Below are positions 308 to 13,928 of a stretch of 13,928 bases of DNA, piece by piece. Source of the DNA: a virus (taxonomy: Duplodnaviria; Heunggongvirae; Uroviricota; Caudoviricetes); IMG/VR virus record IMGVR_UViG_2648501669_000011. One strand, given 5' to 3'. The notes beneath the pieces were generated by a model. The model was given only the letters and a program-made list of their open reading frames with translations, did not search any database and was not told the DNA's origin. The position numbers and the translations under genes were made by a program. Numbering within the stretch: the stretch's first letter is position 1; each line of letters opens with the position of its first letter.

Positions 308-484
308 ATGACGCGAAAACACTGGACACACAGAATGCCGCGAACGGCGGCGAAATGGGTAGCGATACTGGTGCCTTTTTTATTGGTGGGATGCGTCAGC
401 CTGGATAAGGCGCGCCAGCTTTTCGATACAGCTTCTCAGGTCTGCGAAATTGTTGATAGTGTCCGGCAGTGTCTGCAGAACTGA
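308..484 (+). CDS. small putative lipoprotein (58 aa precursor, about 29 aa mature)
   Basis: Translation MTRKHWTHRMPRTAAKWVAILVPFLLVGCVSLDKARQLFDTASQVCEIVDSVRQCLQN: basic n-region, hydrophobic core and an L-V-G-C lipobox (Cys codon 392-394). The mature part has two further Cys. Start is tightly coupled to the preceding ORF (TGATATG). Confidence 0.35.
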   Translation: MTRKHWTHRMPRTAAKWVAILVPFLLVGCVSLDKARQLFDTASQVCEIVDSVRQCLQN

Positions 485-658
485 TCGCCCGTAAGAGCAG
501 AATATTTTGCTGAAAAATGAGGGGTGCGTCAGCGCACGGAAAGCATGAAATTCTGCGTTTGTGGTTATTCAATAAAATAAATTCTTTCTATCGCCGCGAA
601 TACTCAAATGTTGATCAGTGCCCGGTGCGGCGACAGGCTTCGATATCAGGAGACGATG

Positions 659-1054
659 ATGGAAAAAACAGAAAACAAACCGATTGCAATTGGTGCTGAT
701 GCTGCTCCGTTTAAGTTTGAGTTGTCTCAACTGGTGGAGATGCGCATCAGTGATGAATGGGGTGAGGTTAAAGCCCGCGCGCAGTATGCGTATGGCGAAA
801 ACCAGTACTTGATCCACTACAAAGCAGCTGATGGCCGCGCCACGACGGAGTGGTTTGGTGAGTCAATGCTGGAAGCAACAGAAGATGATCGTCATCCTGG
901 TTGTCCGGTATTTGCCTGCATGAAATTGCCGGAAGGCGCAGTAGTTGAACTGCAGCCGGGTGAGATGTTCGTGATGACAGACATCATTGATGGTAAACCG
1001 CAGTATTCGCGTATTGAAATGAATGGTAAGAGTGCTCGCCTGATTCGTGAGTAA
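659..1054 (+). CDS. hypothetical protein, 131 aa, acidic, no predicted TM segment; possible accessory (moron) gene
   Basis: ORF-track frame 608-1054. AGGAG at 648-652 sits 6 nt before ATG 659 (ATG 656 is too close). Translation begins MEKTENKPIAIGADAAPFKF; stop TAA at 1052-1054. Lies between the left-edge small ORFs and the putative cos/terminase region. No family recognised. Confidence 0.6.
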   Translation: MEKTENKPIAIGADAAPFKFELSQLVEMRISDEWGEVKARAQYAYGENQYLIHYKAADGRATTEWFGESMLEATEDDRHPGCPVFACMKLPEGAVVELQPGEMFVMTDIIDGKPQYSRIEMNGKSARLIRE

Positions 1055-1194
1055 CAGGCATTACAGCAGCTCTTCAGCGAGGGGCTGCGATAATGCAGGT
1101 GTTGGAGTGTATGCAAATGATAATTGCTCCCATTTTCACGGGTCCTTCCTGGAATTTAGAACACCGAGGGGATGCGGATGCGCAGAAAACGGCT

Positions 1195-1364: not shown

Positions 1365-1901
1365 ATGTCAAATGTGATTGGGATTGGTGATGCTTATCAC
1401 TGGAGTGTTTTTAAAATCGCCGAGGCTTTTGGGCTTCATCGGGACACAGTAAAAAAACGTCTCCTCGCCGCCAACACTCCTGTGGCTGCAACTGTCAAAG
1501 GAAACCCCGTTTATGCCCTGCAGCATGTCGGACCTGCCCTGTTTGGCCCGAAGCATGAGGTAGCAGACTCTGTTCATGATCCATCCCGGATGGAGCCGAA
1601 AGAGAGGAAGGACTGGTTCCAGTCTGAAAATGAAAGGATCAAGCTGGAAAAGGAACAGCGGAAACTCATCCCTGTCGATGAAGTGGTCATCGTCTATTCA
1701 TCTATGAGAAAGGCTGTCGTTCAGGTTCTGGAGACCATTCCGGATATTCTGGAACGCGATTGCGCCCTGACTCCTCAGGCTGTTGGTGTTGTACAGCAGG
1801 CCATTGATGACCTGCGATATACCCTTCAGGAAAAATCCTACGAGGCCTGTGCTGCTGAATTAATTTCTAATGAGGAAGGGGAGAGTCTCGAGGAGGAATA
1901 A
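1365..1901 (+). CDS. terminase small subunit (lambda Nu1-like, N-terminal helix-turn-helix)
   Basis: GGAG at 1355-1358 then ATG 1365. N-terminus MSNVIGIGDAYHWSVFKIAEAFGLHRDTVKKRLL has an HTH-like layout comparable to the lambda Nu1 N-terminus; acidic C-terminal tail (EEGESLEEE). Stop TAA overlaps the ATG of the large subunit (TAATG at 1899-1903). Confidence 0.75.
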   Translation: MSNVIGIGDAYHWSVFKIAEAFGLHRDTVKKRLLAANTPVAATVKGNPVYALQHVGPALFGPKHEVADSVHDPSRMEPKERKDWFQSENERIKLEKEQRKLIPVDEVVIVYSSMRKAVVQVLETIPDILERDCALTPQAVGVVQQAIDDLRYTLQEKSYEACAAELISNEEGESLEEE

Positions 1902-4015
1902 TGGGTTTTTCATCAGCCCGAAACCTTGGCAGGGACATATCTGCAGGATTTTCCCCACCACGTCGCATGCCGATTTCGGAGGCTGTTAAAAAATTCATGC
2001 GAGTTCCTAAGGGCGCGGGTAACTCAGTGCCATGGGATCCTGAACTGACGCCCTACATTATTGAACCTATGAACTGTTTGGCATCGCGTGAATACGATGC
2101 GGTGATTTTTGTTGGTCCTGCGCGAACAGGGAAGACCATCGGTCTGATCGATGGATGGGTTGTCTATACCATCGTCTGTGATCCTTCGGACATGCTCGTC
2201 GTGCAGATGACCGAAGATAAGGCTCGTGAGCATTCGAAAAAACGGCTCGACAGAACGTTCAGAAGCAGTACAGCGGTAAAGAAAAGAATGAGTCCACGTC
2301 GTAATGACAATAACGTCCATGATAAGACGTTCAAGGATGGCTCATTTCTTAAAATTGGTTGGCCCTCAGTCAATATTATGTCGTCGTCGGATTACCGGTT
2401 TGTTGCCTTAACCGATTACGACCGCTTTCCGGAGAATATCGACGGTGAAGGTGATGGTTTCTCCCTGGCTTCAAAACGTACCACCACATTTATGTCTGCA
2501 GGTATGACGCTGGTGGAGAGTTCCCCTGGACGTGAGATCACAAACAGCAAATGGCGCAGAACGTCACCGCATGAAGCCCCGCCCACCACGGGGATCCTTT
2601 CTCTATATAACCGTGGCGATCGTCGTCGCTGGTACTGGCCCTGCCCAGATTGTGGTGATTATTTCCAGCCATCTATGGAGGCTATGACGGGGTATCGTGA
2701 CAATCCTGATCCTGTAAAAGCCAGTGAAGCGGCTCATATATTATGCCCTCATTGTGGCAACCGAATCACCGCAGACATGAAACGTGAACTGAATGGTCGC
2801 GGCGTCTGGTTGCGTGAAGGTGAGCAGATTGACAGAGAAGGGAATGTTACCGGAACGCCACGTCATTCAAGGATAGCCAGCTTCTGGATGGAAGGCCCCG
2901 CTGCAGCCTATCAGACCTGGGCGCAACTGGTTTACAAACTACTGACTGCTGAGCAGGAATATGAAGCCACAGGCAGTGAGGAAACACTGAAGGCGGTGAT
3001 TAACACCGACTGGGGATTACCTTATTTGCCTCGTTCTGCCATGGAGTTGCGCAGTGCAGATGTCCTGATGCAGCGGGCTGAGGATTACGGTAAGCGCCTG
3101 GTACCGCCGAAAGTGCGTTTTCTTATTGCGGCTGTGGACGTGCAGGGCGGGAAGAACCGACGGTTTGTGGTGCAGATTATTGGCTATGGCGAGGATGGCG
3201 AACGCTGGCTGGTGGACCGTTATAACATCCGACAGTCATTGCGCTGCGATGAAAATGGCGAAGCATTACCTGTGCATCCCGGGGCTTATCCTGAAGACTG
3301 GCAGTTGCTGGTCACCGATGTACTGGAGAAAACGTATCCGCTCCAGTCCGATCCGGCCCGCAGAATGCCTGTACTGGCAATGGCGGTGGACAGTGGTGGT
3401 GAAGACGGGGTGACGGATAACGCCTATAAATTCTGGCGAAAATGTCGTCAGGATGGACTGGGGCGACGGGTTTTTCTGGTAAAGGGAGACAGCACGAAAC
3501 GCCAGAAAATTATCACCATCACACACCCGGATAATACCGGGCGAAGCGATCGCCGTGCGGATGCTCAGGGAAAGGTGCCGGTATATCTCCTGCAGACAGA
3601 CCTGCTGAAAGATCAACTAAGCAATAACCTGCAACGTGAAATGCCCGGACCGGGCTACATTCATTTTCCTGACTGGCTCGGGGAGTGGTTTTATGAAGAG
3701 TTGACCTATGAGGAACGCGGTGCTGACGGGAAATGGCGCAAGCCAGGAAAAGGGAATAACGAAGCATTTGACCTTTTTTGCTATGCCCATGCCGTCGCCA
3801 TTCTGCGTGGCTATGAAAAAATCCGTGACTGGAACAACCCTCCCCAGTGGGCAAGAGGGCAGAATGCTGACGCTGGGGCTTCAGCAGACGGACGTTCTTC
3901 CGGCACAGTGGACAAGAAAAACGTTGCCGGAAGAGATGAGCGGCAAAAAGCAGCATCGTCGGAAGCGTTATCCGGAAACTGGTTATCACTACCCCGAAAC
4001 GGAGGATGGTTGTGA
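1901..4015 (+). CDS. terminase large subunit (lambda gpA family)
   Basis: 704-aa ORF directly coupled to the small subunit, with GAGGAGGAA upstream. P-loop GPARTGKT (2114-2137) near residue 72-79, similar in position to the lambda gpA ATPase motif. CPDCG (2642-2656) and CPHCGN (2744-2761) form a CxxC-X29-CxxC zinc-ribbon-like motif. Size and order match gpA. Confidence 0.85.
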   Translation: MGFSSARNLGRDISAGFSPPRRMPISEAVKKFMRVPKGAGNSVPWDPELTPYIIEPMNCLASREYDAVIFVGPARTGKTIGLIDGWVVYTIVCDPSDMLVVQMTEDKAREHSKKRLDRTFRSSTAVKKRMSPRRNDNNVHDKTFKDGSFLKIGWPSVNIMSSSDYRFVALTDYDRFPENIDGEGDGFSLASKRTTTFMSAGMTLVESSPGREITNSKWRRTSPHEAPPTTGILSLYNRGDRRRWYWPCPDCGDYFQPSMEAMTGYRDNPDPVKASEAAHILCPHCGNRITADMKRELNGRGVWLREGEQIDREGNVTGTPRHSRIASFWMEGPAAAYQTWAQLVYKLLTAEQEYEATGSEETLKAVINTDWGLPYLPRSAMELRSADVLMQRAEDYGKRLVPPKVRFLIAAVDVQGGKNRRFVVQIIGYGEDGERWLVDRYNIRQSLRCDENGEALPVHPGAYPEDWQLLVTDVLEKTYPLQSDPARRMPVLAMAVDSGGEDGVTDNAYKFWRKCRQDGLGRRVFLVKGDSTKRQKIITITHPDNTGRSDRRADAQGKVPVYLLQTDLLKDQLSNNLQREMPGPGYIHFPDWLGEWFYEELTYEERGADGKWRKPGKGNNEAFDLFCYAHAVAILRGYEKIRDWNNPPQWARGQNADAGASADGRSSGTVDKKNVAGRDERQKAASSEALSGNWLSLPRNGGWL

Positions 4016-4230
4016 AAAAAGATGAGATTTTCCAGATGCTGGTTATCGTGCGTCAGGCATACAGGGATTCCCTGGATGGTAAAAGTGTGTCTTTTACCGG
4101 GGTGAATGGCAGGGCGATCACCAACCATGATCCTGTTGCATTGCGCAGGGAACTTGAATACTGGGAAAAACGCTGGGCGGCGGCCTGCCAGCCCACAAGG
4201 AAACCGTACAAACTCGCCCGTTTCTCCTGA
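4012..4230 (+). CDS. head-tail joining / head completion protein (lambda gpW-like)
   Basis: 72-aa ORF between terminase and portal, as lambda W. GGAGG at 4001-4005 sits 6 nt before GTG 4012 (ATG 4006 has no spacer). The start overlaps the terminase stop (GTGA). Similarity to gpW is by size, position and loose pattern only. Confidence 0.55.
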   Translation: MKKDEIFQMLVIVRQAYRDSLDGKSVSFTGVNGRAITNHDPVALRRELEYWEKRWAAACQPTRKPYKLARFS

Positions 4231-4238
4231 GGTTTTTT

Positions 4239-5750
4239 ATGGGTTTTTTTGATAAAGCACTTGGTGCAATTGCGCCAGGGTGGGCAGTTTCGCGCGCCAG
4301 AAACAAAATGCTGCTGAGAGCTTATGAGGCGGCGCAGCCTTCACGCCTGAATAAAGCCCGGCGTGAGAGTCGTTCTGCCGATACAGCAGTTTTTTCTGCC
4401 GGCACTTCGTTAAGGGAGCAGGCCAGGGCGCTGGATGAAGATCATGATATCGTGATTGGTCTGCTGGATAAGCTGGAAGAGCGGGTTATTGGTGCGCAGG
4501 GGATCCAGGTTGAACCACAACCACTGAGAAGCGATGGCACCCTGCATGAATTGCTGGCAGAGCAGATCTCGGCATTGTGGTCTGAATGGTCTGTTCGCCC
4601 TGAGGTCACGGGGATGTTCACTCGCCCGGAGGCCGAACGGATGGCATTGCGATCTGCTTTGCGTGATGGCGAGATGTTCGTACAACTGGTGCGTGGTCCT
4701 GTCGCCGGTCTGAATCATTCCACTGTGGTGCCATTATCACTGGAACTTCTCGAAGCAGATTTTGTTCCGGTCAGTCTGAACACGAACGCGGGTCAGCAAG
4801 TCCGCCAGGGCATTATTCTTAACAACTGGGGGCGGCCTGTAGGGTATCGGGTTTATAAATACCATCCTGCAAATATGCGTGGATTCAGCGCCGATCTCAA
4901 AACTGTTCACGCAGACAACATGCTTCATCTGGCGATGCGGAAACGGCTTCATCAGGTGAGAGGTGTCAGCCTGTTACATGGTGTGATTCGCCGGATTGCT
5001 GATCTGAAAGATTACGAAGAATCAGAGCGTGTGGCTGCCCGTATTGCTGCCGCGCTGGGTTTCTACATTAAGCGTGGTGATGCCGCCAGCTTTCCGACGG
5101 ATAACGACTGGACACCCACAGAACAAAAACCCCGGTACTTTGATATTTCGCCGGGCATGATTTTTGACGAACTGGCCCCCGGTGAAGATCTGGGGATGGT
5201 GGAGTCGAATCGTCCGAATGTTCATCTTTATGAATTCCGGAACGGACAGTTGCGTGCTGTGGCTGCCGGAACCCGTGGCAGTTATTCCAGTATTGCCCGT
5301 GACTATAACGGCTCCTACAGTTCGCAGCGTCAGGAGCTGGTGGAAGGTTACGAAGGCTACGGGGTTTTACAGCAGTGGTTTGTCGGTCAGTACAGCCGCC
5401 CGGTGTACCGGGCATGGCTGGAGCAGGCGATACCTTTTCTTGAAATTCCTCCTGATGTGGATATGTCCACGCTTTTCAATGCCACTTATCTTGGCCCGGT
5501 GATGCCGTGGATTGATCCGGTGAAGGAGGCTGCAGCATGGCGGGCCATTCTTCGCGGTGGTGCCGGGACGGAGGCCGAGTGGATACGTGCCCGTGGGCAG
5601 TCACCGCAGGAGGTCAAACGTCAGCGACTGCGTGAAACTGAATTTAACCGGGAAAACGGGCTGGTGTTCGATTCTGACGCCGCTAACGATAAAGGAGTGA
5701 TCCCTGATGCAGCAAATGATAAACCCGCGTCTTCGCGGGACGATGATTAA
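4239..5750 (+). CDS. portal protein (lambda gpB family)
   Basis: 503-aa ORF in the canonical position after terminase and W; GAGG 6 nt upstream of ATG 4239. Size and composition fit lambda-type portals; acidic C-terminus (SSRDDD). Confidence 0.8.
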   Translation: MGFFDKALGAIAPGWAVSRARNKMLLRAYEAAQPSRLNKARRESRSADTAVFSAGTSLREQARALDEDHDIVIGLLDKLEERVIGAQGIQVEPQPLRSDGTLHELLAEQISALWSEWSVRPEVTGMFTRPEAERMALRSALRDGEMFVQLVRGPVAGLNHSTVVPLSLELLEADFVPVSLNTNAGQQVRQGIILNNWGRPVGYRVYKYHPANMRGFSADLKTVHADNMLHLAMRKRLHQVRGVSLLHGVIRRIADLKDYEESERVAARIAAALGFYIKRGDAASFPTDNDWTPTEQKPRYFDISPGMIFDELAPGEDLGMVESNRPNVHLYEFRNGQLRAVAAGTRGSYSSIARDYNGSYSSQRQELVEGYEGYGVLQQWFVGQYSRPVYRAWLEQAIPFLEIPPDVDMSTLFNATYLGPVMPWIDPVKEAAAWRAILRGGAGTEAEWIRARGQSPQEVKRQRLRETEFNRENGLVFDSDAANDKGVIPDAANDKPASSRDDD

Positions 5751-7797
5751 TCCCCGCGCCAGCCTTGCGGGGGTGGATGCCGCTAATGGTCAGTGCTGGT
5801 ATGAAATCCGTGCACAGACTGCCGGGCGGGTGGAAATTTACCTCTATGACGTGATTGGCGGATGGGGCATCACCGCGCAGCAGTTTATTGCTGACTGTAA
5901 GGATGCGGGGGTGTTTGAGGCCAGCGCTATTGATCTGCATATCCACAGCCCGGGCGGTGATGTGATGCAGGGGTTTGCCATCTTTAACACGCTGTCACGG
6001 CTGAAAGCGAAGGTGGATATCTGGGTGGATGGTGTTGCAGCCAGCATGGCCTCCATGATTGTCTGCCTGCCTGGCGCCACAGTGCATATGCCTGAAAATT
6101 CCTGGCTGATGATACACAAGCCGTGGGGCGGGATCGCCGGTGATTCCGATGATATGCGTGATTATGCTGACTGGCTGGATCGCAACGAGGCGCTGATGCT
6201 GTCAGCCTACATGAATAAAACCGGACTCGGGCAGGAGGAGCTGGAAGCCATGCTGAAAGCAGAAACCTGGCTGAACGGTGCTGAAGCTGTGGAAAAAGGC
6301 TTCGCTGATACGCTTGAACCTGAATTACAGGCTGCGGCCTGTGTGAACCAAAATAAACTGAAGGATTACCATAATATGCCAGAACAGATTAACGCGCTTT
6401 TTGCTCCACGTGCAGAAACGACAAACGGACAGCCGCAGGAGCCGAAAGCAACCCCGCAAAATGCGCAACAGATCGCTGCTCAGCAGGCACCATCAACCGG
6501 AAATGTGGATATCAGCGCAATTGCTTCGCAGGTTCAGCAACAACTGATGGCAGCCAATGCGGAACGTGTGCAGGCTGTAACCGCAGTTTTTGCCTCTTTC
6601 CCGTCTTATGCCGCACTGAAAGCGGAGTGTCTGAACGACATGACCTGTACGGAAGCACAGGCCCGTGAAAAACTGTTGCAGGCGCTGGCAGCCGGAACGA
6701 CACCAAGTGCAGGCCCGGGCGCTGTTCATATTCATGCCGGGAACGGTAATCTGGTCGGCGATTCCATTCGTGCGGCTGTGATGGCACGCGCCGGATATGC
6801 CGAAGCAGAAAAAGATAATGCTTATAACGGTTTTACACTGCGCGAGCTGGCGCGTGCTTCGCTGGTTGATCGCGGTATCGGTATCTCCGGTCATTCCGCA
6901 CCGATGGCGATGGTGGGGCTGGCATTTACTCACAGCAGCAGCGATTTCGGCAATATCCTGATGGATGTGGCTCATAAAGCTGCGTTGCAGGGCTGGGATG
7001 ATGCCAGCGAAAATTTTGACAAATGGACCCGCAAGGGAACGCTGACTGATTTTAAAACCGCGCATCGTGTCGGGCTGGAAACTTTCCCGACGCTACGAAA
7101 AGTATTGCCGGGGGCTGAATATAAATATGTGACCCTGAAAGATCGTGGCGAACCGATTGCACTGGCGACTTATGGCGAATTGTTCAGCATTGATCGCCAG
7201 ACCATCATCAATGATGACCTGGATATGCTGACCCGTATTCCGATGGCAATGGGGGCGGCAGCGCGGACTACCGTGGGGGATCTGGTCTGGGCCGTGCTGA
7301 CCAGCAATCCGAAAATGTCGGATGGCAAACCGCTGTTCCATGCAGATCATGGCAACCTGGTGACTGCCGATTTGTCTATTGAGGGGCTGGATTCCGGGCG
7401 TAAAGCCATGCTGCTCCAGAAATCGGGTGACCGTCGCCTGAACATTCGTCCTGCTTTTATGTTGACGCCTGTTGCCATTGAGTCGCGTGCCAATCAGTTG
7501 ATTAAGTCTGCCAGCGTGCCTGGTGCAGATGCGAACAGCGGCATTATTAACCCGATTCAGAATTTTGCCACGGTTCTGTCAGAGGCCCGTCTTGATGACA
7601 GCAGCCCGACGGATTATTACCTGGTGGCAGCGCAGGGGCGTGACACGATTGAAGTGGCTTACCTCGACGGTATTGATACGCCGTATCTGGAGCAGCAACA
7701 GGGCTTTACGGTTGATGGTGCAGCATTCAAGGTGCGCATTGATGCCGGAGTGGCACCGCTTGACTGGCGTGGCATGGTCAAAGTGAAAAAACAATAA
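5707..7797 (+). CDS. three-part head gene: ClpP-like prohead protease, Gln/Ala-rich scaffold-like linker, C-terminal major capsid domain (Gifsy-2 type)
   Basis: 696-aa ORF. N-terminal third carries ClpP catalytic signatures: AASMAS (Ser codon 6043-6045, compare E. coli ClpP AASMG) and MIHKPWGG (His codon 6115-6117, compare MIHQPLGG). Residues about 224-330 are low-complexity Q/A/P-rich. No separate capsid gene of about 340 aa follows, so the C-terminal 370 aa is inferred to be the capsid protein. Start is ambiguous (ATG 5707 with GGAG at 5694-5697; in-frame ATGs at 5716 and 5743). Confidence 0.7.
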   Translation: MQQMINPRLRGTMINPRASLAGVDAANGQCWYEIRAQTAGRVEIYLYDVIGGWGITAQQFIADCKDAGVFEASAIDLHIHSPGGDVMQGFAIFNTLSRLKAKVDIWVDGVAASMASMIVCLPGATVHMPENSWLMIHKPWGGIAGDSDDMRDYADWLDRNEALMLSAYMNKTGLGQEELEAMLKAETWLNGAEAVEKGFADTLEPELQAAACVNQNKLKDYHNMPEQINALFAPRAETTNGQPQEPKATPQNAQQIAAQQAPSTGNVDISAIASQVQQQLMAANAERVQAVTAVFASFPSYAALKAECLNDMTCTEAQAREKLLQALAAGTTPSAGPGAVHIHAGNGNLVGDSIRAAVMARAGYAEAEKDNAYNGFTLRELARASLVDRGIGISGHSAPMAMVGLAFTHSSSDFGNILMDVAHKAALQGWDDASENFDKWTRKGTLTDFKTAHRVGLETFPTLRKVLPGAEYKYVTLKDRGEPIALATYGELFSIDRQTIINDDLDMLTRIPMAMGAAARTTVGDLVWAVLTSNPKMSDGKPLFHADHGNLVTADLSIEGLDSGRKAMLLQKSGDRRLNIRPAFMLTPVAIESRANQLIKSASVPGADANSGIINPIQNFATVLSEARLDDSSPTDYYLVAAQGRDTIEVAYLDGIDTPYLEQQQGFTVDGAAFKVRIDAGVAPLDWRGMVKVKKQ

Positions 7798-7800
7798 ATA

Positions 7801-7824
7801 ACCGCCGGACAGGGCGGTTTTTTT
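7801..7824 (+). terminator. intrinsic terminator / attenuator just downstream of the capsid gene
   Basis: ACCGCC (7801-7806) pairs with GGCGGT (7813-7818) around loop GGACAG, followed by a 7-T run (7818-7824), 4 nt after the TAA stop at 7795-7797. Confidence 0.6.
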
Positions 7825-7869
7825 ATGGCTGAAGCGGCGCACTTTGCGCCGCATTTACCGGAGAAAAAA

Positions 7870-8199
7870 ATGTCAAAAAATTTTGTTCAGGACGGAAAAA
7901 ACGTCGACTGGCTGAACGGGACCGGAAAGGCGGTGTCATCTGGCGATCTGGTTGTTCAGGATAATCTTGTTGGTGTTGCTCACGCTGATATTCCGGACGG
8001 GGATGTGGGCATTCTGCATACGGTGGGGGTTTTCTCTTTGCCTAAAGAGGCAGAGGCGCTGACGCAAGGCAGGCTGGTGTATTTCAAAGCGGATACGGCA
8101 ACACTGACTGCAACGAAATCAGGTAATACGCTGGTGGGAACAGTATGGGCATCGGCTGAAGCCGGAGATGCCTGTGTTTGTGTGCGTCTGGGGTACTGA
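7870..8199 (+). CDS. head decoration / capsid cement-like protein (DUF2190-like, about 109 aa)
   Basis: GGAG at 7860-7863 sits 6 nt before ATG 7870. Translation MSKNFVQDGKNVDW...SGDLVVQDNLVGVAHADIPDGDVGILHTVGVFSLPKEAEALTQGRLVYF...GNTLVGTVWA fits the pattern I recall for DUF2190 proteins that follow capsid genes. Size is close to lambda gpD. Confidence 0.6.
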   Translation: MSKNFVQDGKNVDWLNGTGKAVSSGDLVVQDNLVGVAHADIPDGDVGILHTVGVFSLPKEAEALTQGRLVYFKADTATLTATKSGNTLVGTVWASAEAGDACVCVRLGY

Positions 8200-8555
8200 T
8201 GCATCGATTTTATAAACGGCTGATGCGGGCAGATGCCCGCATTTCCCGGCTTTTTTCCGAGGAGTGTCCGGCGATACTGTCTATTGGCAGTGAGCGTCGC
8301 CCTGTTATGGTGATTTTTGAATCTCCGGATGCGCCGGTTCGTGTTCCGGGGGGTGGAGAAATTAACGATCAGGCTCCGGCATTCAGCGCACTGACAGAGG
8401 ATATTAAGGGGCTCAGCACAAACTGCGCAGTGGAGCTGAACCACGAATTTTACCGCGTCACGCATATTGGTGCGGATGAAATGGGGCGTACACGCGTAAC
8501 GCTCGGGCGTGGACGGGGGACGTCATTACCGACCATCGAATGGAGTAAAAAATAA
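8199..8555 (+). CDS. putative head-tail connector / head completion protein (118 aa)
   Basis: ATG 8199 overlaps the previous stop (TGATG). Position between decoration gene and tail genes. Translation begins MHRFYKRLMRADARISRLF. Function inferred from position only. Confidence 0.5.
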   Translation: MHRFYKRLMRADARISRLFSEECPAILSIGSERRPVMVIFESPDAPVRVPGGGEINDQAPAFSALTEDIKGLSTNCAVELNHEFYRVTHIGADEMGRTRVTLGRGRGTSLPTIEWSKK

Positions 8556-8576
8556 ACTTCATAAGGAGATATCGCA

Positions 8577-9260
8577 ATGGCGCGGGCATCACGCATCCGG
8601 CGAAATCTGTTGTTTGATATCGACGTCGAAGAATTGCGGGATATTGCGGCGCAGGCTGGTGCAACGCAGCACCAGTTCCGTCTGGCCTATTCCCGCGCAC
8701 TGAAGCGAACGGCATCAAAAATGCGCATGAAGGCGCTTGCGGAACTGAAAACCGGCCTGGCTCCCCGCAAAATGGACACACTGGACAGGCGGCTTTTTTC
8801 CACCCGCATTACCCGGGGTAATGCTATGGATGAAGCCCGTCTCTGGTTTGGCCTTAATGCGATCAAGATAAAAGATTTGCGCGGACGCATTCGTGGGCAA
8901 CGTGTCCGGCGTCATGATCTCCGTGATCCGGTAACCGGGCGGTTTATCAAAGAGAACCGTGTCCGGCGACGTCGCCGCAAAGCCAGCGATCCCGTTTTTG
9001 AACCCAACGGTTCGTTTTTATCTCCTGCCGCGTATGAAAACGGGCTGGTGATACGTAGTCGCAAAGAGAACCGACGAACAATCATCATCAAAAATCCTGA
9101 AACCGGGCGTGTCCGGGAGGCTGAAGCTGGTATTTATGCCAGCACGATGGATTATGTTGAAGATGTGGCTTTTGCGGAGTGCCTGGAAATTTTTATGAAA
9201 GAGTTCGAATCGGACATCCGGCGACGCGCGAAGTACGGCATTACCGTGGCCCCCCGATAA
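8577..9260 (+). CDS. Arg-rich basic virion morphogenesis protein (227 aa), function unknown
   Basis: AAGGAG at 8563-8568 sits 8 nt before ATG 8577. Highly basic, including RVRRRRRKASD. Lies between head and tail modules; no family recognised. Confidence 0.55.
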   Translation: MARASRIRRNLLFDIDVEELRDIAAQAGATQHQFRLAYSRALKRTASKMRMKALAELKTGLAPRKMDTLDRRLFSTRITRGNAMDEARLWFGLNAIKIKDLRGRIRGQRVRRHDLRDPVTGRFIKENRVRRRRRKASDPVFEPNGSFLSPAAYENGLVIRSRKENRRTIIIKNPETGRVREAEAGIYASTMDYVEDVAFAECLEIFMKEFESDIRRRAKYGITVAPR

Positions 9261-9274
9261 AATGTGAGGACGCA

Positions 9275-9844
9275 ATGGCTGAACCCTTATGCATGGCATC
9301 CTGGCACGCTGCTGTGCTGGATACCCTGAAAAAACTTAAATGGATCAATGATGCGGACACCTATCCGGAACGGGTCACGCAACTGGTCACTCCGGCGGTG
9401 TTTCTGGCGGTGGATGGCTGGGATGCGAAAAGCAATGCAGACGGGCAGATGACGGTGGTGTTGTCTGCCGCGCTGTGGGTACTGGTTGACCGTGCCGGTG
9501 AGCCGGATAAAGAAAAAAAAGAAGAACGCAGGGCGATAAAGCCGGATATTTTTATCCGTTCGGCGGCCGCCGCGTTGTCGCACTGGCTCGACGGGCAGAC
9601 GTTCGGACTGGCAAATGTGGAGCCTGCCATTTTTATATCAGCGGACGCAGATGAAACCGATCCGCGTCTGGATGATTATCTGGTCTGGCAGATTTCATTT
9701 AACCAGACGGTGACGTTTGGTATGGATCCCTTTGCCACGGATAACCTGCCGTTACAGCGGGCCTGGCTGGGCGTGGCACCGGAGATCGGGCGACAGCATG
9801 TGGATGATTATCGGCTGATTTTTGAGGGAAAGCCACGTGAATGA
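9275..9844 (+). CDS. putative tail completion / neck protein (189 aa)
   Basis: GAGG at 9266-9269 sits 5 nt before ATG 9275. Translation begins MAEPLCMASWHAAVLDTLKKLKW. Stop TGA at 9842-9844 overlaps the next gene's start. Functional call is positional. Confidence 0.5.
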   Translation: MAEPLCMASWHAAVLDTLKKLKWINDADTYPERVTQLVTPAVFLAVDGWDAKSNADGQMTVVLSAALWVLVDRAGEPDKEKKEERRAIKPDIFIRSAAAALSHWLDGQTFGLANVEPAIFISADADETDPRLDDYLVWQISFNQTVTFGMDPFATDNLPLQRAWLGVAPEIGRQHVDDYRLIFEGKPRE

Positions 9845-10457
9845 GGTTCTGGGGGATTTACAGCGTCGCCTGGCAAATATGGTCCGGCGTGGGGTGATCC
9901 ACTCGGTGCGGCTGGACGGTGGTTTTCCGGAATGCCGCGTGGATCTGGGGGATATTGTGACCACCTGGCTGCCATTGTGTCAGGGTTTTGCCGGGAAAAA
10001 CCGGGCAGATTTTGAGCCGTTTGCTGTGGGCGATGCGGTCACGGTACTGTCAGAGGCCGGGGAGCTGAATAACGGTCGTGTTTTTCCCGGCTGGAATACC
10101 GGTGAGGCACCGGCTCCGCAGGGCAGCGACAGTGAGCACATCACCCGTTACGGAGATGGCACGGAAATTTGCTATAACCGGGAGACGCACTCACTGACCA
10201 TTATTCTGGCGGAAGGGGGCACCTATGCCATTACCGGGAATGGTGTGCTGGACGGAAACGTCATGATCTCAGAAGACCTGATCGTGAACGGACGCACGAT
10301 GGTTGAAGGTGAAGTGGTGGTGAAAAGTGATTTTTATGCAAAAGGCGAGGTGACGGATAAATCCGGTAGCATGAGCCGGATCCGGGAAACGTTTAATGGA
10401 CACGACCATCCCGGAGACAGTGGGGGAACCACGAAAGTACCGAATCAGAAAATGTGA
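9837..10457 (+). CDS. baseplate central spike / assembly protein (P2 gpV / Mu gp45 family-like)
   Basis: GAGG at 9825-9828 sits 8 nt before GTG 9837. N-terminus VNEVLGDLQRRLANMVRRGVIHSV, internal TTWLP and AVGDAVTVLSEAGELNNGRVFPGW, and C-terminal HDHPGDSGGTT (10401-10433, an HxH motif) match my recollection of gpV-type spikes. Same size class as P2 gpV. Confidence 0.6.
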   Translation: MNEVLGDLQRRLANMVRRGVIHSVRLDGGFPECRVDLGDIVTTWLPLCQGFAGKNRADFEPFAVGDAVTVLSEAGELNNGRVFPGWNTGEAPAPQGSDSEHITRYGDGTEICYNRETHSLTIILAEGGTYAITGNGVLDGNVMISEDLIVNGRTMVEGEVVVKSDFYAKGEVTDKSGSMSRIRETFNGHDHPGDSGGTTKVPNQKM

Positions 10458-10495
10458 CCTGCTGCGGCAGGTTTTTTTATGTCCGGAGAATGCAA

Positions 10496-11956
10496 ATGGG
10501 GCAATTACATGGTGTGGAAACCATCGAGCTGACAGCAGGCACGGTGGCAGTAACCACAATAGAGACAGCCATTATTGGTGTGGTGGGAACCGCGCCGCAG
10601 GCTGCCGGAGCTGTGGCAGCGACACTGACAGCGGGAACGCCGCTGCTGGATAACGAGCTGACCTTTACGGCAAAAGCGGGGGGACGGAGCGGAAATACCA
10701 TTACCGTTATTGCTGAACAGGCTGTCAAAGAAAAAAGTGCGGGTGCGGTTCCCACGTCAGCAAAATGGGAAAACGGAAGCCTGTTGATTTGGCTTGGATG
10801 CAGTGAAGAGGGGGCAGGCAATGCCACCGTCAGTGATGTTGTGACGGCGGTGAATGGTGTGGCGGGGGCCGGGGTGAGTGCCACCGGCAGCGGTGACGGT
10901 ATTGTGTCGCCGTTTTCCGGCACACTGAGTGGCGGTGAAGATGAACCGTTTCCGCTGAACACGCCAGTGGCGATGGCGGGAACAACGGCGCTTTCACGTC
11001 TGGGGATCACCGGAACACTGAAGCAGGCGCTGACGGAGATTAACGACCAGCGTAACGCGCTGTCGGTGATCGTCCGGGTGGAAGAAAAAACGAAGCCGGA
11101 AGAGCAGCGTGCTGCCATTCTTGCGGGGATCAGCATGCTGTCATCGGCAAAATCCGTCACCACGTATCAGCCACGTATTGTGATTGCACCAGGATTCAGT
11201 GAAGACGATGCGGTGGGTAAGGCACTGGAAACGGTGGCCGGAAAACTGCGTGCAGTGGCGTACGTGGATTGTGCTGCGGGCGCGACACTGCAGGATGTGG
11301 TGCAGCGTCGCCAGTCTTACGGTGCCAGGACTGAATTACTGCGCCCGCGTGTGCAGGTCAGTAATGCAGAGGGGCAACTGGTGTATCGCCCGTATTCGGC
11401 CTTTGCTGCCGGACTGCGTGCCCGTATTGACTATGAAAAAGGGTGGTGGTGGAGCAAATCAAACCAGGAGGTTTACAACATCCTCGGTGTTGAGCAGGTG
11501 GATGAATTTATCCTCGGTGAGCGCAACTGTGATGCCAACCTGCTTAATATGCAGAATGTCTCCACCCTGATTCGCCGCGCCGGATTTAAACACTGGGGAA
11601 ACCGTCTGTGCTCGTCCCATCCCCAGTGGCATTTCGAGTCCGTCCGCCGTACTGCGGATGTGATTGAAGACAGTATTCAGGAGGCGATGCTGGCGTATGT
11701 TGACCGCCCGCTCGATCGCCAGAATGCGGACGATATCATCGGCACCATTAATGCGTATATGCGCCGTCTGGTGGCAGAAGGGGCCATCTTCGGGGGGCGG
11801 GCATGGCTGGATCCGGAACTGAATACCGCCGAAACACTGGCAGCCGGGGAACTGTACATCAACTATGACTTCGGTCCCAAATCGCCGACGGAACTTATCA
11901 GCATGCGGGTGAGCGTCAACAACGAATACGGCATTAAGGAGATGACGGCAACATGA
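10496..11956 (+). CDS. contractile tail sheath protein (P2 FI / Mu L family)
   Basis: GGAG at 10485-10488 sits 7 nt before ATG 10496. N-terminus MGQLHGVETIELTAGTVAVTTIETAIIGVVGTAP and C-terminal motifs GWWWSK, TLIRRAGFKHWGNRLCS, AETLAAGELYINYDF parallel P2 FI as I recall it. 486 aa. Confidence 0.8.
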   Translation: MGQLHGVETIELTAGTVAVTTIETAIIGVVGTAPQAAGAVAATLTAGTPLLDNELTFTAKAGGRSGNTITVIAEQAVKEKSAGAVPTSAKWENGSLLIWLGCSEEGAGNATVSDVVTAVNGVAGAGVSATGSGDGIVSPFSGTLSGGEDEPFPLNTPVAMAGTTALSRLGITGTLKQALTEINDQRNALSVIVRVEEKTKPEEQRAAILAGISMLSSAKSVTTYQPRIVIAPGFSEDDAVGKALETVAGKLRAVAYVDCAAGATLQDVVQRRQSYGARTELLRPRVQVSNAEGQLVYRPYSAFAAGLRARIDYEKGWWWSKSNQEVYNILGVEQVDEFILGERNCDANLLNMQNVSTLIRRAGFKHWGNRLCSSHPQWHFESVRRTADVIEDSIQEAMLAYVDRPLDRQNADDIIGTINAYMRRLVAEGAIFGGRAWLDPELNTAETLAAGELYINYDFGPKSPTELISMRVSVNNEYGIKEMTAT

Positions 11957-12459
11957 GCAGCAAAAACACATTACGCGCCTGGACTTTTTTCCGCCAGGGG
12001 ATCCGTATTCAGGGAGCGCATGAGTTCACGCCCCCCACGCTGTCCATAACCACCACTGATTTACGCACCGGGGCACAGGATGCCCCCACGCCGGTTGACG
12101 ACGGCATGGAGGCGCTGACCTGCCAGATTAAATTCTATGGTCTGGATACAGACATGCTGTCCAGTCTCGGATTTGTCAGTGGCAACCGCTCCCGCTTCAC
12201 GGCCTATCAGGGTTATCTGGCAAACGGCACCGCGCTGGGGACCACCGAAGAAATCGAAGGTTTTGTGAAAACGGTGACGCCGGATGCACGTGGAAACAGC
12301 AGCCTGTCAGAAAATGCGGTGACAGTGGAAATCGCGGTGAATTATTACCGTCAGACGCTGGAGGGGATCGAACTCATTATGATTGATACCGAGCGTTTCG
12401 AGCGTCGGATCAACGGTGTGAATGTACTTGCCGGTCTGTCGGCAAAAGTGCGTCTCTGA
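11953..12459 (+). CDS. tail tube protein (P2 FII / Mu M family)
   Basis: ATG 11953 overlaps the sheath stop (ATGA). 168 aa, immediately after the sheath gene. C-terminus YYRQTLEGIELIMIDTERFERRINGVNVL resembles the P2 FII C-terminus. Confidence 0.75.
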   Translation: MSSKNTLRAWTFFRQGIRIQGAHEFTPPTLSITTTDLRTGAQDAPTPVDDGMEALTCQIKFYGLDTDMLSSLGFVSGNRSRFTAYQGYLANGTALGTTEEIEGFVKTVTPDARGNSSLSENAVTVEIAVNYYRQTLEGIELIMIDTERFERRINGVNVLAGLSAKVRL

Positions 12460-12469
12460 TTAACACATA

Positions 12470-12492
12470 ACGGCCTGCGGGCCGTTTTTTTT
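12470..12492 (+). terminator. intrinsic terminator / attenuator between tube and chaperone genes
   Basis: CGGCC (12471-12475) pairs with GGCCG (12480-12484) around loop TGCG, followed by an 8-T run (12485-12492). AAGGAG for the next gene follows directly. Confidence 0.55.
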
Positions 12493-12504
12493 AAGGAGCA
12501 GATT

Positions 12505-12804
12505 ATGAATATTCCGGGCGAAACCCGCACCATCACACTGTACACGCCGGTCACTCTGGGAGGCGGGGCTGTGCTGGAACGCATCACCATGCGCGAACCG
12601 CTGGTGCGCGATCGCATTGCCTTCACCAAAGACCGGGGAACAGAAGAGGAAAAAGAGGCGCGTATGATTGCGCAGCTTTGTAATCTGAGTGAGCAGGATA
12701 TCTGGCTGCTGACCGCAGCGGATTATGCCCAGCTGACGGATGCCTTTAATGTTTTTATGCTGCCACCCGGGAAGCGACCGAAACCGAAATCTTCAGAGGG
12801 TTAA
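12505..12804 (+). CDS. tail assembly chaperone (P2 gpE-like), zero-frame product
   Basis: AAGGAG at 12492-12497 then ATG 12505. 99 aa (MNIPGETRTITLYTPVTLGG...MREPLVRDRIAFTKDRGTEEEKE) between tube and tape measure genes, as for P2 E. Confidence 0.7.
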   Translation: MNIPGETRTITLYTPVTLGGGAVLERITMREPLVRDRIAFTKDRGTEEEKEARMIAQLCNLSEQDIWLLTAADYAQLTDAFNVFMLPPGKRPKPKSSEG

Positions 12805-12932
12805 GGTTTCTCGGGCGGCGGCTGCATTTTCCTCTTTCCGATTATCTGTCCATGCCGTTCAGTGTGTTTACGGCATTTTTACTGGATGAAGTGGAGGCAG
12901 TAAAACGTGGGAAGCGTAAGCCAGAATCTTAA
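12505..12932 (+). CDS. predicted -1 frameshift product of the tail chaperone (gpE+E'-like, about 142 aa)
   Basis: The -1 frame is open only from 12750 (TAA at 12747-12749) to TAA at 12930-12932. A T5 run (12752-12756) sits at the start of that window, where tRNA-Phe on TTT 12754-12756 can re-pair at 12753-12755. The extension overlaps the tape measure start by 26 nt. Confidence 0.5.
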
Positions 12933-13928
12933 GGCTACCGTGTCGTTCGGGGGCAAACTGGACAGTTCGTGGTGCCGTTCGGCGACGGATCTGCGAAAAA
13001 ATTTGCAGGATGTGGAGCAGCAGGCTGCGCGTTTACGTAAGGAGCAGGCAGAGCTGGCAGCAGAAATGAAGCGGGCGGCGCTGGCAGGGAAGCGTTTTAA
13101 GTCGATGGAGGATGAATACGCCCGGCTCACTGCTGAAATTAAGAAAGCGGATGCGGCCCAGAAAAAACTGAACCGGAGCCTTGAGCGTCGCGATCGGCTC
13201 GGACGTTTTATGGGCAAAGGAAAAAGCCTGCTTGCCGGAACCGGCAAATTTGCCTGGAATGCCGGTCTGGCGATGGGAGGCGGGGCCGTGACCACGGCGC
13301 TTGGTGCGCTGATTGCTCCGGCTGCCATGAATGCGCAGACGGCTGAAACAGCGGGTAAAGCGACTGCGTATGGCGTGGATACCCGCACGTACATGAACTG
13401 GGACGCCCTGGCAAAACAGTACGATATGACCGGCGATAATATCGGGGATCTGTTTGAGGAATACCTGCATAAGGCCGGGGAATATAAACAAAATGGCAAG
13501 CAGAGTTCGCTTTCTGACGCCTTTGAAACGCTGGGATTTGAGGAAGGCGATCTTGCCGGACTGAGTGATAAGGAACAGTTCGAAAAAATTATCGACAGGG
13601 CGCTGTCACTGAAGGATGAATCAAAGGCATCGTTTGCGCTGGATGCATTGTTTGGTGGTGAAGCCAGTAAACTGCTGATGCTGATCAAACGTTCTGGAAA
13701 AAGTTTTCAGGAACTGCTGGCTGAGCAGGATAAATATAACCTGGTGACAAAAGAGGGTGTGGCTGGCGCACTCGCCGGAAACAAGGCTGTTTCTGATTTG
13801 CAGCAGGTTTTTTCTTCTGCGGTTGCAGAAATTTCCGGACAACTGGGCGCAGAGCTGGCCCCCGCCATACAAGAGACAGCGGGTGACCTGGCAGAGTGGT
13901 TTAAAGGCGGAGGCATTAAAAAGGTTGT
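12907..13928 (+). CDS. tail tape measure protein, N-terminal part (3' end beyond window)
   Basis: GGAGG at 12892-12896 sits 10 nt before GTG 12907. The frame is open for more than 340 codons to the window end, alpha-helical, Ala/Lys/Glu-rich, in the position expected after the chaperone genes. Missing from the ORF track because no stop lies in the window. Confidence 0.75.
   Translation, partial: MGSVSQNLKATVSFGGKLDSSWCRSATDLRKNLQDVEQQAARLRKEQAELAAEMKRAALAGKRFKSMEDEYARLTAEIKKADAAQKKLNRSLERRDRLGRFMGKGKSLLAGTGKFAWNAGLAMGGGAVTTALGALIAPAAMNAQTAETAGKATAYGVDTRTYMNWDALAKQYDMTGDNIGDLFEEYLHKAGEYKQNGKQSSLSDAFETLGFEEGDLAGLSDKEQFEKIIDRALSLKDESKASFALDALFGGEASKLLMLIKRSGKSFQELLAEQDKYNLVTKEGVAGALAGNKAVSDLQQVFSSAVAEISGQLGAELAPAIQETAGDLAEWFKGGGIKKV

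What the first reader, a model, noticed from the sequence alone, without database searches (positions are those of the whole stretch)
9837..12459. Mosaic virion: lambda/Gifsy-type head joined to a P2-type contractile tail, with the spike gene ahead of the sheath
Terminase, W-like, portal and the three-part capsid gene are lambda/Gifsy-like, lineages usually paired with non-contractile tails. The following genes are P2-like (gpV-type spike, sheath, tube, E/E' chaperone, tape measure). The gpV-like spike gene (9837-10457, C-terminal HDHPGDSGGTT) sits directly upstream of the sheath, whereas in P2 and Mu the spike is grouped with baseplate genes away from the sheath-tube pair. The mosaic junction falls in 8199-9844, where three proteins of unrecognised family lie.
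Basis: partly seen in the sequence, partly recalled or inferred. Interest (0 to 1): 0.45.

Follow-up and report, generated by a model that had tools for sequence, protein, structure and literature searches.

The report
Lambdoid prophage with P2-type contractile tail
This is the virion-gene operon of a rare E. coli prophage that joins a Gifsy-2-type head to a P2/R-pyocin-type contractile tail; the spike gene sits before the sheath because two tail-gene blocks swapped places, which is an ordinary, already-sequenced kind of phage mosaic.

Summary
The 206-aa protein (9837-10457) is a full-length homologue of the P2 spike gpV, with the HxH apex motif. It lies 38 nt upstream of a P2-type sheath (10496-11956) and tube (11953-12459). 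The head genes are of the Gifsy-2/cdtI type.

The interpretation needs three corrections.

1. The three "unrecognised" proteins are recognisable. They are a lambda FII-like head closure protein, a lambda gpZ-like tail completion protein, and a tail terminator of the R-pyocin collar (PA0615) family.

2. The head/tail module boundary is at about 8541, the 3' end of the FII-like gene. A viral contig carries the same tail (97% nt identity) behind a different, lambda B/C/D/E-type head.

3. The spike gene did not move. The order terminator-V is also found in Wolbachia phage WO and in P2-order relatives. What differs is a swap of the blocks [W-J-I-H-G] and [sheath...D].

A conserved terminator-like hairpin follows V. 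P2-order relatives carry two such hairpins, so the V|sheath junction looks like a product of recombination between them.

The architecture is not new. Citrobacter phage Chris1, Hafnia phage yong2, about 14 Enterobacterales species and 13 of 5426 complete E. coli genomes share it. Interest is low.

The parts
1365..1901 (+). Small terminase subunit (DUF1441)
   Evidence: PF07278 E=1e-44. phrog_141. 95% aa identity to phage cdtI.
1901..4015 (+). Large terminase, lambda gpA type
   Evidence: PF05876 and PF20454. 73-75% aa identity to Gifsy-2 and cdtI.
4006..4230 (+). Head-tail adaptor, in the position of lambda W
   Evidence: phrog_118, head-tail adaptor, E=5e-18. No Pfam match.
4239..5750 (+). 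Portal protein, lambda family
   Evidence: PF05136 E=5e-89.
5707..7797 (+). ClpP-like protease / scaffold / major capsid protein fusion
   Evidence: PF00574 and PF25209. phrog_133. 48-53% aa identity to Gifsy-2 and cdtI.
7800..7826 (+). Terminator-like hairpin plus T-run after the capsid gene
   Evidence: Present in the same position in relatives, with differing stems.
7870..8199 (+). Head decoration / cement protein (DUF2190)
   Evidence: PF09956 E=1e-26. phrog_122. This is the last gene with homology to Gifsy-2 and cdtI.
8199..8555 (+). Lambda FII-like head closure / tail attachment protein
   Evidence: PF05354 at 27 bits against a cut-off of 26. phrog_82, the family of lambda FII. Weak match to PDB 1k0h, E=0.06.
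8537..8576 (.). Head-module / tail-module recombination boundary
   Evidence: L031 (97% nt) and L034 (84% nt) match the window only from 8541 and 8537 to the end. Both carry a different, lambda B/C/D/E-type head upstream.
8577..9260 (+). Lambda gpZ-like tail completion (Neck1) protein with an Arg-rich insert
   Evidence: phrog_27 E=3e-24, the family of lambda Z. It is found with the tail in the 705R4-type, Erwinia and L031 loci.
9275..9844 (+). Tail terminator (collar), R-pyocin PA0615 family
   Evidence: Family profile against PDB 6u5f_A 'Collar PA0615', E=4e-32. AF2 model pLDDT 92. Foldseek top hits are 6u5f and 6u5j, then the Mu terminator and lambda gpU.
9837..10457 (+). Baseplate central spike, P2 gpV family
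   Evidence: PF04717. PDB 3qr8 E=2e-22, full length. The HxH residues H189 and H191 are invariant in alignment A1. There is one V gene per genome.
10456..10480 (+). Conserved terminator-like hairpin plus T7 run between the V stop codon and the sheath ribosome-binding site
   Evidence: In 18 sequences 94% of cells are paired, 3 pairs show changes on both sides, and 0 of 500 shuffles reach the covariation score.
10496..11956 (+). Tail sheath, P2 FI type, with an extra N-proximal domain
   Evidence: PF04984 and PF17482. 36% aa identity to P2 FI, E=3e-62.
11953..12459 (+). Tail tube, P2 FII type
   Evidence: PF04985 E=8e-20. P2 FII E=2e-7.
12469..12494 (+). Terminator-like hairpin plus T-run after the tube gene
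   Evidence: Conserved in relatives.
12505..12932 (+). Tail assembly chaperone E (12505-12804) with a -1 frame extension E' open to 12932
   Evidence: PF10109 E=2e-13. The -1 frame is open from 12750, and a T5 run lies at 12752-12756. No canonical slippery heptamer is present.
12907..13928 (+). Tape measure protein, N-terminal part; it runs off the window
   Evidence: 340 codons without a stop. Homologous to the tape measure gene in L001-L003.

Best explanation
The window is the late (virion) operon of a temperate lambdoid myovirus. It belongs to the group represented by Citrobacter phage Chris1 and Hafnia phage yong2, and is integrated in E. coli.

Two modules (shown). The operon is built from two exchangeable modules.
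- Head module (1365 to about 8540): small and large terminase, W-like adaptor, lambda-family portal, ClpP-scaffold-capsid fusion, cement protein and FII-like head closure protein. This module is of the Gifsy-2/cdtI type.
- Tail module (about 8540 onward): gpZ-like completion protein, tail terminator of the R-pyocin collar family, gpV spike, sheath, tube, E/E' chaperone and tape measure. In complete relatives U, X, D, W, J, I, H and G follow. This is a P2/R-pyocin-type contractile tail.

How heads and tails join (inferred). Heads and tails assemble separately. They most likely join through the FII-like protein on the head and the terminator hexamer on the tail, as FII and gpU do in lambda. That would explain why the module boundary lies exactly there.

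Why V sits before the sheath (shown for the order, inferred for the direction). The spike gene has not moved. Terminator-V is a fixed pair in relatives of both gene orders. The lineage differs from the P2 order (V | W-J-I-H-G | FI-FII-E-T-U-X-D) by a swap of the two downstream blocks.

How the V|sheath junction arose (inferred). P2-order relatives carry two near-identical elements of the form 'stop codon, GC hairpin, T7, ATG', one after V and one before the sheath. Recombination between them would produce the single V-hairpin-sheath junction seen in the window.

Expression (inferred). The whole operon is probably read from a Q-antiterminated late promoter. Gene order would then have little regulatory consequence, and the internal hairpins would act as read-through attenuators or RNA stabilisers.
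For: Gene identities.

Same layout in sequenced phages and prophages:
- Chris1 and yong2.
- An E. coli RefSeq prophage 98.8% identical to the window.
- 14 of 16 species-representative loci in Enterobacterales.
- 39 of the 41 informative IMG/VR loci whose V is at least 57% identical.

Module boundary:
- Head homology to Gifsy-2 and cdtI ends after the cement gene.
- The tail is 97% identical from 8541 onward in a contig with a different head.
- An Erwinia locus has the same tail behind a different head.

Block swap:
- Serratia L023 has the same head type but the order V-W-J-I...sheath...D.
- L064/L110 and L071 show the same P2 order.
- The outgroups 705R4-type, WO and P2 all have V next to W or PAAR-W.

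Hairpins:
- The hairpin after V shows covariation.
- P2-order relatives have two copies sharing the flank TTTTTTTATG.

Late control: a Q antiterminator gene lies upstream in the 98.8%-identical prophage.
Against: - I could reach no electron micrograph or induction data for this prophage or for Chris1 and yong2. The Chris1 paper is not held.
- The hairpin-recombination model explains only the V|sheath junction. The D|W junction is a 2-nt gap with no hairpin, and no hairpin follows D in P2-order relatives. How the W-G block reached its new place is therefore unknown.
- Serratia L023 has fragmented ORFs. It may be decayed or poorly sequenced.
- The direction of the swap rests on outgroup parsimony only.
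- Terminator activity of the hairpins and the FII-terminator contact were not tested.
Confidence: 0.82

Rival explanations
1. The spike gene alone was transposed from the baseplate cluster (V-W-J-I) to a position upstream of the sheath.
For: In P2 and Mu the spike gene lies with the baseplate genes. In the window lineage V is separated from W by about 6 kb.
Against: V directly follows the terminator gene in every relative, whichever order follows it: the window type, Serratia L023, L064, L071, the 705R4 type and WO. The hairpin after V is also present in P2-order relatives. A swap of the two downstream blocks needs no movement of V.
Confidence: 0.07
2. The locus is a defective prophage remnant or a domesticated tailocin, not a functional phage, so the head-tail combination never forms a virion.
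For: - Some E. coli copies are clearly decayed. STEC306-308 keep only sheath, tube and chaperone fused to a truncated replication gene.
- One copy carries an IS3 insertion.
- L002 has a tail-fibre pseudogene.
Against: - All 13 virion ORFs that lie wholly within the window are intact, and the tape measure ORF is open to the window's end.
- Head, neck and tail genes are all present and conserved across at least 14 species, with many substitutions but no disruption.
- Chris1 and yong2 are deposited as complete phage genomes.
- A paper title cited reports that Chris1 transmits a resistance determinant.
Confidence: 0.1
3. The head-tail juxtaposition is an assembly chimera in the source contig.
For: Mosaic joints can arise from misassembly of related prophages.
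Against: The same joint at the same position is present in complete, independently assembled genomes of E. coli, Citrobacter, Hafnia, Pantoea, Tatumella and others.
Confidence: 0.01

Closest known systems
Citrobacter phage Chris1 (ON041214) and Hafnia phage yong2 (MZ516527)
   Same: The gene order is identical from small terminase through V-sheath-tube-E-T-U-X-D-W-J-I-H. Amino-acid identity to the window is 45-84% for Chris1 and 43-74% for yong2. The hairpin after V is the same.
   Different: They have different hosts and different early and accessory genes; Chris1 carries an ars operon. Their tail-fibre regions are divergent.
Bacteriophage P2 (Peduoviridae)
   Same: V, FI, FII, E, U, X, D, W, J, I, H and G are all homologous at 24-43% aa identity. 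The spike keeps the HxH apex motif. There is an E/E' -1 frame arrangement.
   Different: - P2 has its own head genes (Q, P, O, N, M, L) and the completion proteins R and S. These belong to phrog_65 and phrog_26, not to the families found here.
- P2 gene order is V-W-J-I-H-G then FI...D, in separate operons with their own activator-dependent promoters.
R-type pyocin of Pseudomonas aeruginosa (PA0615-PA0628)
   Same: The terminator here belongs to the PA0615 collar family. The spike also matches PDB 4s37, which from memory is the pyocin spike PA0616. From memory of the locus-tag order, the collar gene directly precedes the spike gene, as it does here.
   Different: The pyocin has no head, no FII and no Z. 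From memory, its gene order after V is the P2 order.
Gifsy-2 and phage cdtI (lambdoid siphoviruses)
   Same: The head module is homologous from small terminase to the cement protein. Both also have the ClpP-capsid fusion.
   Different: Their FII, Z and U counterparts and their lambda-type non-contractile tails (V, G, T, H, M, L, K, I, J) are unrelated to this tail at the BLAST level.
Wolbachia phage WO, and the E. coli vB_EcoM-705R4-type prophages
   Same: Both join a lambda-type head (A, W, B, C, D, E) to a P2-type tail through the same trio of Z-like protein, PA0615-family terminator and V.
   Different: - Both have separate C, D and E head genes, not the ClpP fusion.
- V is followed by W (by PAAR-W in WO).
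- No hairpin follows V in the closely related 705R4-type locus L024.
- In WO the sheath cluster lies elsewhere in the genome.
Phage Mu (and, from memory, SfV-type lambdoid myoviruses)
   Same: Contractile tail. The Mu terminator is the third-best structural match to the terminator here.
   Different: The Mu order is sheath, tube..., P, gp45 (spike), gp46. Its tail proteins are not the closest relatives of those here.

Membership tests
P2 gpV / baseplate central spike family | N-terminal OB-fold domain (Pfam Phage_base_V) | tested here: met
   PF04717 at 31.3 bits against a cut-off of 23.8.
P2 gpV / baseplate central spike family | Full-length collinear similarity to a solved spike | tested here: met
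   PDB 3qr8 (P2 gpV) E=2e-22, residues 6-202 aligned to 8-210. PDB 4s37 E=8e-10.
P2 gpV / baseplate central spike family | C-terminal apex HxH motif, which coordinates iron in P2 gpV (role recalled from memory; an iron site in the P2 spike is noted in the preprint read) | tested here: met
   HDHPGDSGGTT aligns with HKHPGDSGGTT of P2. H189 and H191 are invariant in six diverse homologues.
P2 gpV / baseplate central spike family | Trimeric beta-helix needle located under the gpD hub | not tested
   No structure was predicted for this protein. A gpD hub gene exists in complete relatives.
P2/R-pyocin-type contractile tail module | Sheath, tube and E-type chaperone of the P2 families | tested here: met
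   PF04984, PF17482, PF04985 and PF10109. The best BLAST partners are P2 FI and FII.
P2/R-pyocin-type contractile tail module | Programmed -1 frameshift producing E+E' | tested here: inconclusive
   The -1 frame is open from 12750 to 12932 and overlaps the end of E, and a T5 run is present. There is no canonical X XXY YYZ heptamer.
P2/R-pyocin-type contractile tail module | U, X, D, W, J and I baseplate genes | tested here: met
   These lie outside the window. They are present in the 98.8%-identical prophage L002 and best match the P2 homologues.
Peduoviridae (P2-like phages proper) | P2-type head and packaging genes (Q, P, O, N, M, L) | tested here: not met
   The head genes are of the lambda/Gifsy type. 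There are no significant matches to P2 O, N, M or L. P2 Q and P were not included in the comparison set.
Peduoviridae (P2-like phages proper) | gpR and gpS tail completion proteins | tested here: not met
   P2 R belongs to phrog_65 and P2 S to phrog_26. The proteins here belong to phrog_1072 and phrog_27. BLAST finds no similarity.
Peduoviridae (P2-like phages proper) | Gene order V-W-J-I-H-G then FI-FII-E-T-U-D | tested here: not met
   The order here is V-FI-FII-E-T-U-X-D-W-J-I-H-G.
Lambda-type head / neck | gpA terminase, lambda-family portal, W-type adaptor and FII head closure protein | tested here: met
   PF05876 and PF20454, PF05136, phrog_118, and phrog_82 with PF05354.
Lambda-type head / neck | Separate C/Nu3 protease-scaffold and E capsid genes | tested here: not met
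   Here there is a single ClpP-scaffold-capsid fusion gene, as in Gifsy-2 and cdtI.
Tail terminator, pyocin R2 collar (PA0615) family | Sequence-profile and fold match to a solved terminator or collar | tested here: met
   Profile E=4e-32 to 6u5f_A. AF2 model pLDDT 92. Foldseek to 6u5f_A: E=3e-9, TM 0.65/0.72. The Mu terminator and lambda gpU follow in the list.
Intrinsic (rho-independent) terminator | GC-rich hairpin followed by a U-run, with pairing conserved | tested here: met
   Covariation is shown: 94% of cells paired, 3 pairs with changes on both sides, 0 of 500 shuffles.
Intrinsic (rho-independent) terminator | Actually terminates or attenuates transcription | not testable with these tools
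   This needs transcript 3'-end mapping or a reporter assay.

The most novel reading that the evidence does not exclude
The conserved 'stop codon, GC hairpin, T7, ATG' elements flank tail sub-modules: after V, before the sheath, after the tube and after the capsid gene. They may be more than attenuators. They could act as short portable homology 'linkers' at which sub-modules of the tail operon are permuted or exchanged between lambdoid myoviruses. The V-sheath order would then be a caught example of recombination at such a linker.
Probability: 0.2. Interest if true: 0.4.

Novelty: new member of a known kind. Interest (0 to 1): 0.2.

Why it matters
It matters little beyond annotation.

- It corrects the functional assignment of three neck and tail-completion genes in this prophage group. 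RefSeq and GenBank call two of them 'hypothetical'.
- It identifies the PA0615-type terminator as the tail-side partner that lets P2/R-pyocin-type tails be combined with several lambda-type heads.
- It gives a clean natural example of two levels of modular exchange in one family: head swapping at the 3' end of the FII gene, and a block swap within the tail operon.
- It does not reveal a new kind of virion or a new mechanism.

Tried and rejected
- BLASTP of the FII-like, 227-aa and 189-aa proteins against P2 R, S and L, lambda FII, Z and U, and Mu G, gp35, gp36 and gp37 gave nothing significant.
- Pfam at E up to 10 gave only a sub-threshold Mu_Gp37 hint for the 189-aa protein.
- The first AF2 model of the 189-aa protein, built from 17 close homologues, was unusable at pLDDT 47. 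A 122-sequence alignment from the representative search fixed this.
- PDB sequence search for the 227-aa protein gave only a chance-level RNase M5 hit.
- Literature:
  - The phrase pair 'P2-like tail' and 'lambda-like head' found no paper.
  - The Chris1 paper is not held.
  - The one hit for 'yong2' was a patent citation for an unrelated Vibrio phage.
  - Virion morphology therefore could not be confirmed from publications.
- I looked for a third hairpin after gene D in P2-order relatives, which would support a three-repeat unequal-crossover model. None is there; another fibre gene follows instead.
- The STEC306-308 partial matches were checked as a possible alternative junction. They are deletion remnants.
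- Rfam found nothing in the window, and the direct-repeat scan found nothing meaningful.


Full report
**What is in the window**

All substantial genes lie on the + strand and form one tightly packed late operon. In order they are:

- small terminase, 1365-1901: DUF1441, phrog_141
- gpA-type large terminase, 1901-4015
- 74-aa head-tail adaptor, 4006-4230: phrog_118
- lambda-family portal, 4239-5750
- 696-aa ClpP-scaffold-capsid fusion, 5707-7797
- DUF2190 cement protein, 7870-8199
- three short genes in 8199-9844, discussed below
- the 206-aa protein, 9837-10457
- sheath, 10496-11956
- tube, 11953-12459
- E-type chaperone, 12505-12804
- the start of a tape measure gene, from 12907

**The spike**

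The 206-aa protein matches Pfam Phage_base_V above its curated cut-off. It aligns over its whole length with the crystal structure sequence of P2 gpV, PDB 3qr8, at E=2e-22. Its C-terminal HDHPGDSGGTT aligns with HKHPGDSGGTT of P2. The two histidines are invariant in six diverse homologues.

There is only one V-like gene per genome in the complete relatives. In those relatives D is followed directly by W, with no second spike gene.

**Lineage of the tail**

BLASTP was run against P2, lambda and Mu proteins, using the window proteins plus the downstream proteins of a 98.8%-identical E. coli prophage. V, FI, FII, U, X, D, W, J, I, H and G each have the P2 protein as their only significant partner, at 24-43% identity.

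**Lineage of the head**

The head genes are close to those of Gifsy-2 and phage cdtI:

| Protein | Identity to Gifsy-2 / cdtI |
|---|---|
| small terminase | 95% (cdtI) |
| large terminase | 73-75% |
| portal | 51-55% |
| capsid fusion | 48-53% |
| cement | 39-43% |

Both of those phages continue with lambda-type Z, U, V, G, T, H, M, L, K, I and J genes, so they have non-contractile tails. The 'mosaic' description is correct.

**The three 'unrecognised' proteins**

All three can be assigned.

- 8199-8555 belongs to Pfam Phage_attach and to phrog_82, which is also the family of lambda FII.
- 8577-9260 belongs to phrog_27, the family of lambda gpZ.
- 9275-9844 (189 aa) had no family name, so I pursued it.
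  - An exhaustive profile search found 323 representatives.
  - A 122-sequence profile matched PDB 6u5f chain A, the 'collar' PA0615 of pyocin R2, at E=4e-32 over the whole length.
  - An AlphaFold model built on that alignment reached pLDDT 92.
  - Its best structural matches were the pyocin collar (TM 0.65/0.72), then the Mu tail terminator, then lambda gpU.
  - It is therefore the tail terminator.

The neck is thus made of a W-like adaptor and an FII-like closure protein on the head side, and a Z-like protein and a terminator on the tail side. By analogy with lambda FII and gpU, head and tail would join at the FII-terminator interface. That step is inferred, not tested.

**Where the modules meet**

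Homology to Gifsy-2 and cdtI ends after the cement gene. Homology to phages with other heads begins at the Z-like gene. This holds for the E. coli 705R4 type (Z-like 30%, terminator 28%, V 34%, sheath 54%), for an Erwinia locus (51-73%), and for Wolbachia phage WO (terminator and V).

The sharpest evidence comes from an IMG/VR contig, L031. It is 97% identical in nucleotides to the window from 8541 to the end. Upstream of that point it carries lambda B, C, D, E and FII homologues and has no similarity to the window. L034 behaves the same way from 8537.

The boundary therefore lies within the last 15-20 nt of the FII-like gene. The two FII types share their C-terminal codons.

**Why V is next to the sheath**

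A fusion query of V plus sheath against 50,697 phage records found V directly before the sheath only in Chris1 and yong2. A few other phages (Mae-JY29, Zymomonas records, Smp131) have V-W-sheath.

I collected relatives through the terminator (16 species-representative genomes) and through V (80 viral contigs). The results were as follows.

- In every case V immediately follows the terminator gene.
- Fourteen of the 16 genome loci have the window order, V-FI-FII-E-T-U-X-D-W-J-I-H. One of these, the 2.1-kb Providencia contig L009, shows only the Z-like gene to the start of the sheath.
- Thirty-nine of the 41 informative viral loci whose V is at least 57% identical show the same order.
- Serratia rubidaea L023 has the same head type but the order V-W-J-I-...-FI-FII-E-T-U-X-D.
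- L064/L110 and L071 have lambda-type heads and also show that P2 order.
- The more distant 705R4 type, WO and P2 also have V next to W, or next to PAAR-W.

The simplest reading is that V never moved. The blocks [W-J-I-H-G] and [FI...D] exchanged places in the ancestor of the window lineage. The direction rests on outgroup parsimony only.

**A conserved hairpin at the junction**

Directly after the V stop codon lies a GC hairpin followed by T7 (10456-10480). The sheath ribosome-binding site follows it. Across 18 sequences 94% of cells are paired, three pairs show changes on both sides, and none of 500 shuffles reaches the observed covariation score.

P2-order relatives carry two such elements. 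One follows V and precedes W. The other follows the fibre-assembly gene and precedes the sheath. Both end in TTTTTTTATG. In L064 the hairpin after V is identical to the V-sheath hairpin of yong2 and L067, and only the 3' leader differs.

Recombination between the two copies would generate exactly the V-hairpin-sheath junction seen in the window. This is inference, and it explains one junction only. The D|W junction is a 2-nt gap without a hairpin, and no hairpin follows D in P2-order relatives.

Similar conserved hairpins follow the capsid gene and the tube gene. A Q antiterminator gene lies upstream in the near-identical prophage. These elements are therefore probably read through during late transcription. 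They may act as attenuators or RNA stabilisers, but this was not tested.

**How common and how new**

- The region occurs in 13 of 5426 complete E. coli genomes, and some copies are decayed.
- The same architecture is present in two deposited phage genomes, Chris1 and yong2, and in prophages of Citrobacter, Enterobacter, Scandinavium, Pantoea, Erwinia, Rosenbergiella, Tatumella and Providencia.
- Joining a lambda-type head to a P2-type tail through the Z-like/terminator/V trio is also seen in Wolbachia phage WO and in the 705R4-type prophages.
- I found no paper that discusses this gene order, and I could reach no morphology data.

The finding is real but ordinary. It is a further member of an already sequenced group of lambdoid myoviruses, and its gene order is a lineage-specific permutation of the P2 tail cluster.

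**Verdict**

Novelty is 'new member of a known kind', and interest is about 0.2. The most novel reading still open is that the repeated terminator-like hairpins serve as recombination linkers for shuffling tail sub-modules. I put its probability at about 0.2.

Noticed in passing
window 8537-8576; L031 4700-4740; L034 4700-4740: The same tail module is joined to a different head in IMG/VR contigs: L031 (97% nt identity from 8541 to the end of the window) and L034 (84%) both carry a lambda B/C/D/E/FII-type head. The breakpoint lies inside the last ~15-20 nt of the FII gene, and the two FII types share their C-terminal codons (...LP.I..WSKK). This hints that the FII C-terminus co-varies with the tail terminator.
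   Followed up: partly
window 7800-7826 and 12469-12494: Terminator-like GC hairpins with T-runs lie directly after the major capsid gene and after the tube gene. They are conserved in position across the family, with differing stem sequences. A second hairpin follows the capsid one in most relatives.
   Followed up: partly
window 10496-11956 (sheath residues ~1-143): The sheath is 486 aa against 396 aa in P2 FI. Its Ala/Gly/Thr-rich N-proximal ~140 residues align only weakly with P2 FI (29% against 36% for the rest) and are not matched by tblastn in 705R4-type sheaths. The region is probably an extra surface domain.
   Followed up: no
window 8577-9260 (residues ~100-140): The gpZ-like protein is 227 aa against 192 aa in lambda Z. 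It carries a strongly basic Arg-rich stretch (RGRIRGQRVRRHDLRDPVTGRFIKENRVRRRRRK) of unknown role.
   Followed up: no
window 12750-12932: The E' extension frame (-1) is open and overlaps the tape measure start at 12907. The only slippery candidate is a T5 run at 12752-12756 (GTT TTT ATG), not the canonical heptamer and not the T-rich site I recall for P2.
   Followed up: partly
window 1-1100: Small ORFs at 133-306, 308-484 (lipobox-like LLVGC) and 608-1054 match families of unknown function (phrog_4493, phrog_7528, phrog_1935). At the nucleotide level they are 93-95% identical to Stx phages phiP27 and phiSTEC1575-Stx2k and 89% identical to an Actinobacillus phage. This is a separate mosaic patch upstream of the packaging genes.
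   Followed up: no
window ~1170-1350: An AT-rich stretch (GC 0.43) with a 40-nt imperfect direct repeat (1232-1271 and 1309-1348) lies just upstream of the small terminase gene. The genomes of phages Tritos and cdtI begin at about window position 1170, so the cos site probably lies here.
   Followed up: no
L029 (E. coli STEC308) 13151-16259: This is a prophage remnant. A truncated replication-type 'ATP-binding protein' gene is fused about 50 nt into the sheath gene. Only sheath, tube and chaperone are retained, followed by a truncated host transporter gene.
   Followed up: yes
L023 (Serratia rubidaea NCTC12971) 9330-18900: The P2-order relative has its Z-like, sheath, tube and tape measure genes split into several ORFs. 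Either the prophage is decaying or the long-read assembly has indel errors.
   Followed up: no
L110 11142-11570; L112 10198-10630: In P2-order relatives a further fibre-like gene follows D directly. In L112 it has collagen-like G-x-x repeats. The end of the tail operon is therefore variable.
   Followed up: no
L030 (IMGVR_UViG_3300026224_000019): This contig is 99.0% identical to window 3838-13928 over 10.1 kb. It is the closest sequence found and possibly the same prophage type as the source of the window.
   Followed up: no
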